Under the pieces are notes generated by a model. That model saw only the letters and a program-made list of their open reading frames with translations, was not told where the DNA came from and searched no databases. DNA of 18,720 nt, taken from a virus. Taxonomy: Duplodnaviria > Heunggongvirae > Uroviricota > Caudoviricetes. Positions 16,479 to 17,950 of the stretch are shown one piece after another (position 1 is the stretch's first letter; every line of letters starts with the position of its first letter). The translations under genes and the position numbers were made by a program. The stretch covers positions 1 to 18,720 of the IMG/VR virus record IMGVR_UViG_638341086_000012; one strand, 5' to 3'.

Positions 16479-16650
16479 TTACTCTCTCAGCGTGATGGTT
16501 AATTCAACATTCTGCATGGTCTGCATGACAGTGCCCGACAGCGTCACCCCGGCGCGGCCTCCTGCCTTCCAGACAACGTCGATGGCGTCCAGGGCAATGC
16601 GGGGTTCCCATCGTGTCAGCGCAATCACGGCAGCACTCATGCATTGCAGG
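16479..16650 (-). pseudogene. W: Truncated baseplate gene W (gp25-like): only the C-terminal third remains, abutting the IS left end
   Basis: ...[49 protein letters not shown] parallels the P2 gpW C-terminus. Upstream codons of the ORF-track frame come from IS sequence. No W N-terminus exists right of the IS: the W frame there hits a stop 6 codons from the junction. Confidence 0.75.
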
Positions 16651-16722
16651 TGTAGTGGCACACTAAATTTGGCCACCTGATGAAAGGTGATATTCTCACC
16701 ACAACACAAAACAGGTGACTTA

Positions 16723-17034
16723 ATGAACAAGAAAACCAAACGAACCTTCACCCCTGAGTTCAGGCTGGAATGTGCACAGCTGATTGTTGATAAGGGCTAC
16801 TCATATCGACAGGCCAGTGAAGCGATGAATGTCGGTTCAACCACGCTTGAGAGCTGGGTACGCCAGCTCAGGCGAGAGCGCCAGGGTATTACGCCCTCTG
16901 CCACACCCATTACTCCAGACCAGCAACGTATCCGCGAGCTGGAAAAGCAAGTTCGCCGTCTGGAGGAACAAAATACGATATTAAAAAAGGCTACCGCGCT
17001 CTTAATGTCCGACTCGCTGAACGGTTCACGATAG
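16723..17034 (+). CDS. IS3-family transposase OrfA (helix-turn-helix / leucine-zipper part)
   Basis: [53 protein letters not shown]...[15 protein letters not shown] resembles IS911-type OrfA as recalled. A AAA AAG -1 frameshift heptamer at 16983-16989 near its 3' end. Confidence 0.9.
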
Positions 17035-17153
17035 CCGCCAGACTAAGTGACAGCCACACGGTTGTCAGCCTGTGTTCTGCTCTGGAAATACACCGCAGCA
17101 GTTACCGGTACTGGCGAAAACGACGCGATACGGTTAATCCGGCACGAGTCAGG

Positions 17154-17900
17154 TTGTGCAGCGAAATACGCCGGGCGTGGAACCAAAGTCGGGGCTCTGC
17201 GGGCGCGCGCACTCTGGCTGAAATGCTGACTCAAAACGGCGTCTCGATGAGCCGTTACCGTGCCGGACGTCTGATGAAATATCTGAACCTGAGCAGTTGT
17301 CAGCCCGGAAAACATCAGTATAAAAATGCCCGTCAGGAGCATACCAGCCTGCCGAATCTGCTTGAGCGTCAGTTCGCAGTACCGGAGCCAGACCGGGTAT
17401 GGTGTGGAGATATTACGTATCTCTGGGCAGGAAATCGCTGGTGCTATCTGGCGGTTGTTATGGATCTTTTTGCCCGCAGGGTTATCGGCTGGAGTCTGTC
17501 AGCGCATGCCGATACCGCACTGATAAGCAGTGCCCTGCGGATGGCCTATGAGACGCGTGGCCAACCCCGGGATGTCGTGTTCCATAGCGACCAGGGAAGC
17601 CAGTATACAGGCCTTAAATATCAACAACTTCTCTGGCGTTGCAGAATAAATCAAAGCGTCAGTCGGCGGGGAAACTGCTGGGATAACAGCCCCATGGAAC
17701 GCTTCTTCCGCAGTCTGAAAACAGAATGGGTGCCAACGAATGGTTACGCAGGCAAGGACGAGGCCCGGCAGCAAATTAATGATTACATATTGAACTACTA
17801 CAACAGCGTCAGACCTCACCATTATAACGGTGGGCTGACGCCGGAAGAGTCAGAGAACAGATACCATTTTTACTGTAAAACCGTGGCCAATATTACTTGA
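17154..17900 (+). CDS. IS3-family transposase OrfB (DDE catalytic domain), expressed as an OrfAB fusion by -1 frameshifting
   Basis: Frame is open from about 16986 to 17900, in -1 register to OrfA. Translation contains WCGDITYL...[17 protein letters not shown]...HSDQGSQY...[16 protein letters not shown], consistent with an rve-type integrase core. Confidence 0.9.
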
Positions 17901-17950
17901 CCACTACAAGGTGCTTAAGAGTGAAGTTTCATTTAGATGAACTTAAAAGA

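What the first reader, a model, noticed from the sequence alone, without database searches (positions are those of the whole stretch)
16479..17911. IS3-family insertion at the truncation point of baseplate gene W marks the prophage boundary
The IS (16651-17908) has imperfect terminal inverted repeats and an AGG direct repeat on both sides. Only the C-terminal third of W lies to its left, and the right flank carries unrelated plus-strand genes, with a stop 6 codons from the junction in the W frame. So either W was already truncated at a deletion boundary before the IS landed there, or the AGG match is fortuitous and the IS mediated an adjacent deletion. Without W and V the baseplate cannot assemble, supporting a defective remnant. 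The right-flank ORF at 17897 starts inside the IS, so the IS may supply its promoter or 5' end.
Basis: seen in the sequence. Interest (0 to 1): 0.5.

Follow-up and report, generated by a model that had tools for sequence, protein, structure and literature searches.

The report
IS3-family element on prophage deletion scar
A common 1,258-bp jumping gene (IS3 family) sits exactly on the scar of a 19-kb internal deletion in a dead P2-like prophage of E. coli; this is ordinary genome decay, but sister strains that have lost the element cleanly or with a 2-bp scar show it can leave again.

Summary
An intact 1,258-bp IS3-family element (IS911/ISEc31-like) lies at 16651-17908. It has 26-nt imperfect inverted repeats, an A-AAA-AAG frameshift site and AGG on both sides.

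- **Not a boundary.** The IS does not mark the prophage boundary. The whole window lies inside a P2-like prophage integrated in the ihfA terminator, and its btuC-side att core is 937 bp to the right of the IS.
- **What the IS sits on.** It sits on an internal deletion of about 19.4 kb that fuses codon 61 of W to the last 10 nt of int.
- **Right flank.** The right-flank genes are phage genes that follow int in about 1,000 E. coli genomes. The first one starts at GTG 17921, not inside the IS.
- **W fragment.** About half of W remains, not a third.
- **Sister alleles.** Sister genomes carry the same junction without the IS. Some have a single AGG; one has 2 bp missing exactly at the IS site, which looks like an excision scar. 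The two sister genomes tested carry an iee-like sequence.
- **Order of events.** AGG is therefore a true duplication, and IS-free alleles need not be ancestral. The duplication straddles the junction exactly, so I favour IS first, then an IS-anchored microhomology deletion, then excisions (about 0.6). Deletion first, then a chance insertion, is about 0.3.

This is ordinary and of low novelty.

The parts
16479..16649 (-). W' : 3' remnant of baseplate wedge gene W (codons 61-116 plus stop TAA at 16479-16481)
   Evidence: phrog_43 E 2.9e-13, profile positions 61-114 of 126. tblastn with SE11 W aligns residues 60-116. PGAP annotates it 'baseplate assembly protein, missing N-terminus' in the identical allele.
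16648..16650 (.). Left copy of the 3-bp target duplication AGG. It also contains the W'-int' deletion junction: AG is the 2-bp microhomology and G comes from the int side.
   Evidence: Alignments with intact W and int. The 58 nearest intact W alleles stop matching at 16649.
16651..17908 (+). Complete IS3-family insertion sequence, 1,258 bp (IS911-like). It is about 92.6% identical over its full length to a copy that PGAP labels 'ISEc31 family'.
16651..16676 (+). Left inverted repeat (IRL), tip TGTAGTGG
   Evidence: The same tip is found in 9 other copies.
16723..17034 (+). orfA (103 aa, HTH_Tnp_1)
   Evidence: Pfam E 8.8e-13. This exact protein is indexed in 26,479 blocks of the assembly collection.
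16983..16989 (+). A-AAA-AAG programmed -1 frameshift heptamer, in the orfA frame
   Evidence: Sequence. PGAP notes 'programmed frameshift' in the identical copy. The fused product is 392 aa, the length called in L017 and L039.
16989..17900 (+). orfB frame of OrfAB (rve/DDE catalytic domain), stop TGA at 17898-17900 inside IRR
   Evidence: Pfam rve E 3.4e-27. NF033516 at 360 bits.
17883..17908 (+). Right inverted repeat (IRR), tip CCACTACA. It contains an outward-facing TTGACC at 17897-17902.
   Evidence: sequence.
17909..17911 (.). Right copy of the target duplication AGG
17909..17918 (+). Last 10 nt of the prophage integrase gene, with stop TAA at 17916-17918. This is all that remains of int.
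   Evidence: Alignment with SE11 int (L003 19033-20010).
17921..18283 (+). Phage ORF of 120 aa (phrog_4293, function unknown). In intact prophages it starts 3 nt after the int stop.
18280..18720 (+). Phage ORF of 146 aa (phrog_9415; coiled-coil with a hydrophobic C-terminus). It is the last gene before the btuC-side att core.

Best explanation
What it is (near certain):
- A complete, probably active copy of a very common enterobacterial IS3-family element. It has orfA/orfB with an A-AAA-AAG -1 frameshift and uses copy-out-paste-in transposition.
- It lies inside a defective P2-like prophage integrated in the ihfA terminator, between ihfA and btuC.
- It sits, with a genuine 3-bp AGG duplication, exactly on an internal deletion of about 19.4 kb. 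That deletion removed W codons 1-60, V, the tail-completion, lysis, head, replication and immunity genes, and all but 10 nt of int.

Most likely history (inference):
1. The IS first inserted at AGG at the 3' end of int in an intact prophage. There the sequence CCACTAGG, which resembles its own right tip CCACTACA, lay exactly 3 nt from the incoming left end.
2. A break formed at the outer edge of the left AGG. This is the position where IS3-family transposases make the figure-eight strand transfer. The unprotected prophage side was degraded for about 19.4 kb. It was then rejoined to the IS-bound end through the 2-nt microhomology AG, keeping the IS and its duplication. This is the window allele.
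3. In sublineages of this clone, whose two tested sister genomes carry an iee-like sequence, the IS later excised. Some excisions were precise (one AGG left) and one was near-precise (2 bp lost).

Effect: the IS has no demonstrable function. It only separates W' from two small phage ORFs, which it may feed with read-through transcripts.
For: Identity and context: the IS; prophage, att core, intact relatives; junction, 19,408 bp in SE11 coordinates.

Evidence for a link between the IS and the deletion:
1. The duplication AGG overlaps the junction to the base. Its left edge is the leftmost possible breakpoint of the AG microhomology.
2. G16650 is not W-derived. All 58 nearest intact W alleles, including one 100% identical over 1,071 nt, have A there. 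A classical transposase-made adjacent deletion is therefore excluded, and at least part of the duplication survived the deletion.
3. The reconstructed pre-deletion site reads TTTAATCCACTAGG-AGG, against the IRR ACTTGACCACTACA-AGG. Six tip bases match in the same register.
4. Excision at this very site is documented. L037 (GCA_048659085.1) reads TTGCAGGCTTAAG, with 2 bp missing exactly where the IS sits and flanks that are 100% identical. Precise IS-free alleles occur in at least three backgrounds: F8704-2/L029 and L038.
5. F8704-2 and Z1323HEC0393 each gain one extra match when 700 nt of the Sakai iee gene is appended to the query. IEE-free controls do not, and O26:H11 11368, which I expect from background knowledge to carry iee, gains one too.
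6. Both genomes carry 5-6 further copies of the IS or close relatives.
7. Literature: IEE plus an IS3-family transposase gives precise excision about 10^5-fold more often than in K-12, and gives deletions adjacent to the IS from a few nt to more than 40 kb using microhomology (PMC9943667; bioRxiv 10.1101/2023.06.07.543989). Figure-eight strand transfer goes into the flank next to the other end, leaving 3-4 bp (PMC2909936, PMC7780238).
8. SNPs in about 10 kb give a star-like tree with no branch uniting the IS-bearing genomes.
Against: - The predicted intermediate, an intact prophage with the IS at the int end, was not found. It is absent from 5,426 complete genomes, from IMG/VR and from JGI metagenomes.
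- A deletion that starts at the edge of the duplication but keeps the IS is not a class I could document. The published IEE deletions that I could read about accompany IS loss.
- The CCACTA similarity is only 6 nt and was noticed post hoc. None of 9 other insertion sites has an IR-like flank.
- The simpler two-step history (deletion, then insertion) fits every observed allele.
- The presence of iee was inferred from a change in match count, not from an alignment I could inspect. The window's own strain was not tested.
- SNPs give no polarity.
Confidence: 0.6

Rival explanations
1. Deletion first. An unrelated illegitimate recombination at the 2-bp microhomology AG fused W' to the end of int. 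Later the IS transposed by ordinary paste-in into that pre-existing junction and duplicated AGG. The IS-free precise alleles (F8704-2, L029, L038) are ancestral.
For: This needs the fewest events. IS-free alleles with exactly the same junction and a single AGG exist. The IS makes 3-bp duplications at sites with no obvious consensus. The IS is active in the clone: Z1323HEC0393 has a private second IS3-family insertion. No intact-prophage-plus-IS intermediate was found.
Against: It requires the IS to land within a 3-bp window of about 5 Mb that happens to be the junction. It also requires the duplication's edge to coincide with the edge of the microhomology. The 2-bp scar allele shows that excision occurs here, so IS-free alleles are not evidence of ancestry. 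No SNP supports a clade of IS-bearing genomes. The tip-like CCACTA, 3 nt from the insertion point in the deleted DNA, would be pure chance.
Confidence: 0.32
2. AGG is fortuitous. The IS made a classical adjacent deletion by intramolecular transposition, or two IS copies recombined, so that the left flank is pure W sequence.
For: IS copies without duplications exist. L022 has the same IS between terL and a tail gene with different flanks, TGG and GTA. A synonymous W allele with G at the critical position exists in one unrelated prophage.
Against: All 58 closest W alleles, including a 100% identical one, have A and not G at the position of 16650. The left flank therefore cannot be pure W. IS-free alleles with a single AGG would then need excision between fortuitous repeats.
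Confidence: 0.04
3. The IS marks the prophage end, the genes to its right are unrelated host or island genes, and the IS supplies the 5' end or promoter of the ORF at 17897.
For: The ORF list gives a TTG start at 17897 inside IRR. IRR contains TTGACC facing outward. IS3-family ends can contribute half of a fusion promoter (PMC7780238).
Against: The att core lies 937 bp further right and is single in K-12. The two ORFs follow int in intact prophages and belong to phage protein families. The conserved start is GTG 17921, and the PHROG profile aligns from residue 2 of that product. No promoter-like site was found at the junction. By my reading, the hexamer 17 nt after TTGACC is AGTGAA and overlaps the start codon. 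Read-through from the transposase gene remains possible: its stop is 21 nt upstream and no terminator was detected. This is untested.
Confidence: 0.02

Closest known systems
IS911 / ISEc31 (IS3 family, copy-out-paste-in insertion sequences)
   Same: Length of about 1.25 kb. TG...CA tips. orfA (HTH) and orfB (DDE/rve) in frames 0 and -1, with an A-AAA-AAG slippery heptamer. 3-bp target duplications. An outward -35-like hexamer in IRR. Full-length match to NF033516. About 92.6% nucleotide identity over the whole length to a copy that PGAP labels 'ISEc31 family'.
   Different: It is not identical to ISEc31. It forms its own class of copies at least 99% identical to each other: 937 E. coli records and 308 plasmid records. 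I could not obtain its ISfinder name. The similarity to IS911 itself is from my memory of that sequence and was not tested here.
IEE (IS-excision enhancer) / IS629 system of EHEC O157
   Same: An IS3-family element in a clone whose two tested sister genomes carry an iee-like sequence. There are sister alleles with precise and near-precise loss of the IS. A large deletion is anchored at the IS flank with 2-nt microhomology. These are the outcomes described for IEE plus transposase (PMC9943667; bioRxiv 10.1101/2023.06.07.543989).
   Different: A different IS and a different, non-O157 clone. The large deletion here retains the IS and its duplication, whereas the deletions I could read about accompany IS loss. 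Dependence on IEE and transposase is not tested.
Defective P2-like (Peduoviridae) prophage remnants in E. coli
   Same: Tail genes D, FI, FII, E, E', T, U, G, H, I, J, together with ogr and a W fragment. Head, lysis, replication and lysogeny modules are lost. The remnant is integrated at a terminator-type att site and carries cargo genes.
   Different: This lineage has the FI-U block inverted relative to canonical P2. It also carries two small ORFs between int and att. Both traits are shared with intact relatives.

Membership tests
IS3 family insertion sequence | Transposase with an N-terminal HTH and a C-terminal DDE (rve) domain that matches the family model | tested here: met
   NF033516 at 359.8 bits (cut-off 160), profile positions 1-368 of 369. 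Pfam HTH_Tnp_1 and rve.
IS3 family insertion sequence | Two ORFs in relative frames 0 and -1 joined by a programmed -1 frameshift at an A6G-type heptamer | tested here: met
   A-AAA-AAG at 16983-16989 in the orfA frame. The fusion gives 392 aa, equal to the PGAP product. The frameshift itself is not demonstrated experimentally.
IS3 family insertion sequence | Imperfect terminal inverted repeats ending 5'-TG...CA-3' | tested here: met
   26-nt repeats, 77% complementary. The ends are identical in 9 other copies.
IS3 family insertion sequence | Target-site duplication of 3-4 bp | tested here: met
   AGG here. Eight of 9 other copies have 3-bp duplications. The empty site has a single AGG.
P2-like (Peduoviridae) prophage | P2-type late genes (D, FI, FII, E, T, U, G, H, I, J, W, ogr) and integration flanked by a duplicated att core | tested here: met
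   Annotation of the identical locus and Pfam hits. The 25-bp core is duplicated at both ends of the element and single in K-12.
P2-like (Peduoviridae) prophage | Completeness: head, lysis, replication, int, and baseplate V and W | tested here: not met
   No tblastn hit for V, S or int, and only W residues 60-116. About 19.4 kb is missing relative to SE11. The prophage is defective.
IEE-promoted IS excision/deletion | iee gene present in the host genome | tested here: inconclusive
   F8704-2 and Z1323HEC0393 each gain one extra megablast match when 700 nt of Sakai iee is appended to the query, and controls behave as expected. I could not see the identity or intactness of the gene, and the window's own strain is untested.
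IEE-promoted IS excision/deletion | Precise and near-precise excision alleles at the IS site, with microhomology at deletion joints | tested here: met
   Precise alleles. A 2-bp scar allele, L037. AG microhomology at the 19.4-kb junction.
IEE-promoted IS excision/deletion | Dependence on active transposase and IEE | not testable with these tools
   Needs genetics: iee and transposase mutants with an excision assay.

The most novel reading that the evidence does not exclude
The locus preserves a natural allelic series of IEE-type processing of an ISEc31-like element outside the O157/IS629 model:
1. Insertion 3 nt from a sequence that mimics the IS tip.
2. A 19.4-kb one-sided deletion anchored at the figure-eight strand-transfer position. 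It retains the IS and its duplication, a class of IS-retaining, duplication-preserving microhomology deletion that is not described in the sources I could read.
3. Independent precise and 2-bp-scarred excisions.
Probability: 0.4. Interest if true: 0.4.

Novelty: already known. Interest (0 to 1): 0.22.

Why it matters
Mostly it does not. This is a common IS in a decaying prophage, and identical alleles are already in public genomes and annotated as such.

Two modest points remain.
- **A methodological caution.** In a clone that carries an iee-like sequence, an IS-free allele with a single copy of the target repeat is not proof that the empty site is ancestral. The usual 'empty site' test for the order of events can mislead.
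- **A possible example for IS biologists.** If the IS-first reading is right, the locus is a clean natural example of how copy-out-paste-in elements seed large one-sided deletions and then disappear, leaving almost no trace. That matters when reconstructing how prophages decay.

Tried and rejected
1. **Polarity from SNPs.** I compared the window with Z1323HEC0393, F8704-2 and eight further assemblies over about 10 kb, using SE11 and 31B19CPO012 as outgroups. Nearly all differences are private. The only informative pair unites two IS-bearing genomes and shows that the 132-bp H-repeat length is homoplastic. No polarity for the IS.
2. **A W allele with G at the junction.** One of 5,426 genomes has it, in an unrelated prophage at another locus. 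I rejected it as the ancestor.
3. **The predicted int|IS intermediate.** It was not found in complete genomes, in viral contigs or in metagenomes.
4. **Target-site consensus or IR-like flanks at nine other insertions.** None found.
5. **A hybrid promoter at the IS right end.** None detected.
6. **Function of the two right-flank ORFs and of the 932-aa, macro-domain and acetyltransferase cargo.** No PADLOC hit, and no significant Pfam or NCBIfam hit for the two right-flank ORFs.
7. **ISfinder name.** It could not be obtained. PGAP labels only the 92-93% identical relatives 'ISEc31 family'.
8. **Papers not held.** Kusumoto 2011, Ooka 2009, Loot 2002 and Rousseau 2008 are not in the library. What I say about IS911 insertion next to IR-like sequences rests on my own knowledge of Loot et al. 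2002 (pmid 12145217).
9. **Contigs L031-L035 and L041-L043.** They stop at or near the junction. These are assembly breaks and not independent evidence.

Full report
**The element.** The sequence at 16651-17908 is a complete 1,258-bp insertion sequence.
- It has 26-nt imperfect terminal inverted repeats, 16651-16676 and 17883-17908, 77% complementary, with TG...CA tips.
- orfA (16723-17034) encodes an HTH_Tnp_1 protein. A -1 frame encodes an rve/DDE domain.
- An A-AAA-AAG heptamer at 16983-16989 lies in the orfA frame. The frameshift fusion is 392 aa. It matches NCBIfam NF033516 'IS3 family transposase' end to end, 360 bits against a cut-off of 160.
- The element matches 2,415 of 5,426 complete E. 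coli genomes, with 937 records at least 99% identical. It also occurs on 629 enterobacterial plasmids.
- Copies that PGAP labels 'ISEc31 family' are about 92-93% identical. I could not obtain the ISfinder name.
- Nine other copies from other genomes start and end at exactly the same bases. Eight of them are flanked by 3-bp duplications with no obvious consensus.

**The context.** The identical locus is annotated in E. coli Z1323HEC0393. The window is the interior of a P2-like prophage between ihfA and btuC.
- Comparison with K-12, where ihfA and btuC are adjacent, shows a 25-bp core, GGCCGCTCTGCGGCCTTTTTTCTTT. This is the ihfA terminator. It is duplicated at both ends of the element and single in K-12.
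- The btuC-side copy lies 937 bp to the right of the IS and 125 bp beyond the window end. The IS therefore does not mark the prophage boundary.
- About 1,000 E. coli genomes carry a related prophage. In many of them, including SE11, it lies at this same chromosomal site.
- In SE11 the order is J, W, V, S, R, lysis genes, X, L, M, N, O, then P and Q, cargo, A, early genes, repressor, int, then two small ORFs of 120 and 145 aa, then btuC.
- The window's right flank is exactly this end. 17909-17918 are the last 10 nt of int, with stop TAA at 17916-17918. GTG 17921 starts the 120-aa ORF and 18280 starts the second ORF.
- Both ORFs belong to phage protein families, phrog_4293 and phrog_9415. They are not 'unrelated' genes.
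- The TTG at 17897 is merely the first start codon after a stop, and lies inside the IS. The conserved start is GTG 17921.
- No promoter-like site was found at the IS end. The outward TTGACC in IRR is followed at 17 nt by AGTGAA, which overlaps the start codon. Read-through from the transposase gene, whose stop is 21 nt upstream, is possible but untested.

**The truncation.** The piece to the left of the IS is W residues 61-116 of 116, about half and not a third.
- V, S and int give no tblastn hit in the window.
- Relative to SE11, 19,408 bp are missing.
- The breakpoints are as follows. W reads ...TTGC[AG]ACG. int reads ...CCACTAGG[AG]GTGCTTAA. The junction reads ...TTGCAGGTGCTTAA, a 2-bp microhomology.
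- The G at 16650 comes from the int side. All 58 closest intact W alleles have A there and stop matching at 16649, including one that is 100% identical over 1,071 nt.
- A G allele exists only in one unrelated prophage at another locus.
- This excludes a classical transposase-made adjacent deletion, which would leave pure W sequence next to the IS.

**Sister alleles.**
- The same IS insertion is present in Z1323HEC0393, in CP182026.1 and in at least one draft assembly whose contig runs 85 nt into the IS.
- The same W'-int' junction without the IS, and with a single AGG, is present in O39:NM F8704-2, in GCA_002461715.1 and in GCA_040075215.1. AGG is thus a true target duplication, and the IS and the deletion are separable events.
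- GCA_048659085.1 (L037, with six similar contigs not shown) reads TTGCAGGCTTAAG. It is IS-free but lacks 2 bp exactly at the IS position, and its flanks are 100% identical. The most economical reading is a near-precise excision scar.
- I appended 700 nt of the Sakai iee gene (ECs_1305) to a query for which F8704-2 and Z1323HEC0393 had each given one match. The count rose to two in both. It did not rise in four control genomes. It rose in O26:H11 11368, which I expect from background knowledge to carry iee.
- Both genomes also hold 5-6 other copies of the IS or close relatives.
- In IEE-positive hosts, IS3-family elements excise precisely about 10^5-fold more often than in K-12. Deletions of a few nt to more than 40 kb arise next to the IS by microhomology joining (PMC9943667; bioRxiv 10.1101/2023.06.07.543989).
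- IS-free alleles at this locus therefore cannot be assumed to be ancestral.

**Order of events.** Both orders give the same final sequence.

Deletion-first is the most parsimonious, needing two events. But it requires the IS to hit, out of about 5 Mb, the 3-bp window that contains the junction. It also requires the duplication's left edge to fall on the leftmost possible breakpoint.

IS-first needs three events, but each has a mechanism:
1. In the reconstructed intact site, the incoming IRL lies exactly 3 nt from CCACTAGG. That sequence matches the IS's own right tip CCACTACA in six bases and in the same register. This is the geometry of an IRR-3 nt-IRL junction. From my own knowledge of Loot et al. 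2002, IS911 is known to insert next to IR-like sequences.
2. IS3-family transposases transfer a strand into the flank next to the opposite end, leaving 3-4 bp (PMC2909936, PMC7780238). A break at that position would leave an end beginning AGG-IS. Joining it to degraded prophage DNA through AG gives exactly the window allele.
3. Excision then gives the precise and scarred alleles.

SNPs over about 10 kb give a star-like tree with no branch uniting the IS-bearing genomes and no polarity. The predicted intermediate was not found. I rate IS-first at about 0.6, deletion-first at about 0.32, and other histories at about 0.08. Steps 1 and 2 are inference. Step 3 is supported by the scar allele.

**Verdict.** This is an ordinary IS3-family insertion in a defective P2-like prophage, and identical alleles are already present and annotated in public genomes.
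- The title claim (prophage boundary), the 'unrelated' right flank, the 'third of W' and the ORF starting in the IS are not correct.
- The prophage is indeed defective, and far more so than loss of V and W alone implies.
- The only mildly interesting aspect is the allelic series: IS on the junction, precise loss, and 2-bp scar. It cautions against using empty sites to order IS and deletion events.

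Noticed in passing
window 5383-10968 (+) versus 4116-5357 (-) and 11741-16649 (-); L004, L006, L007: The FI-FII-E-E'-T-U tail block is inverted relative to D and to W-J-I-H-G, unlike the canonical P2 gene order as I recall it. Apparently intact relatives (SE11, CFIAFB20190172, 31B19CPO012) have the same arrangement. It is therefore a trait of the lineage and not a rearrangement of this remnant.
   Followed up: partly
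L037 (GCA_048659085.1), reverse strand around position 8424; equivalent to window 16650/17912: An IS-free allele that lacks 2 bp (TG) exactly at the IS insertion point: TTGCAGGCTTAAG instead of TTGCAGGTGCTTAAG. It looks like a near-precise excision footprint.
   Followed up: yes
window 16719-16841 (+): Rfam gathering-level hit to isrC 'Hfq binding RNA' (RF01387, 150 bits). It lies entirely inside the 5' part of the IS orfA. This suggests the family model corresponds to the 5' part of an IS3-family transposase gene.
   Followed up: no
window 11778-11976 (-): Rfam gathering-level hit to IS009 (RF02111, 194 bits). It lies in the stretch between the acetyltransferase-like gene and the tail-fibre assembly gene and partly overlaps the latter.
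   Followed up: no
window 14163-14526 (within H, 13227-15053 -): A 132-bp tandem repeat in the tail-fibre gene varies in copy number between sister genomes (608 versus 652 aa). F8704-2 has a disrupted H. The length variant is homoplastic: L017 and L042 share two derived SNPs but differ in H length.
   Followed up: partly
window 11064-11067; L001 13116-14424: Z1323HEC0393 has a second, different IS3-family element, annotated with an ALIL-type pseudoknot, between U and the acetyltransferase-like gene. It is absent from the window and from the other sister genomes examined there. This shows ongoing IS3-family transposition in the clone.
   Followed up: partly
window 745-3905 (+), 11092-11697 (+), 12328-13230 (-): Cargo genes sit inside the tail region. 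A 120-aa and 932-aa pair (the latter phrog_18693) lies between ogr and D. A hexapeptide acetyltransferase-like gene follows U. A 300-aa macro-domain protein lies between H and the tail-fibre assembly gene. None hits PADLOC.
   Followed up: partly
L022 (GCA_046575625.1) 1429-2686: Another copy of the same IS lies between a terminase large-subunit gene and a tail-tip J gene of a lambdoid prophage. Its flanks are unequal (TGG and GTA). This is a copy that has undergone an IS-associated deletion or recombination.
   Followed up: no
window 17909-17923: The deletion and the IS fall in the ribosome-binding region of the 120-aa ORF. Intact prophages read GGAGGTGCTTAAGAGTG. The IS-bearing allele reads CAAGGTG..., the precise IS-free allele CAGGTG..., and the scar allele CAGGC... 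Translation efficiency of this ORF may therefore differ between alleles.
   Followed up: no
window 4116-5357 (-): The D (Phage_GPD) reading frame is open for 413 aa here. PGAP annotates only a 266-aa product plus an overlapping pseudogene in identical or related loci, and a 369-aa product in 31B19CPO012. The true start of D is unclear.
   Followed up: no
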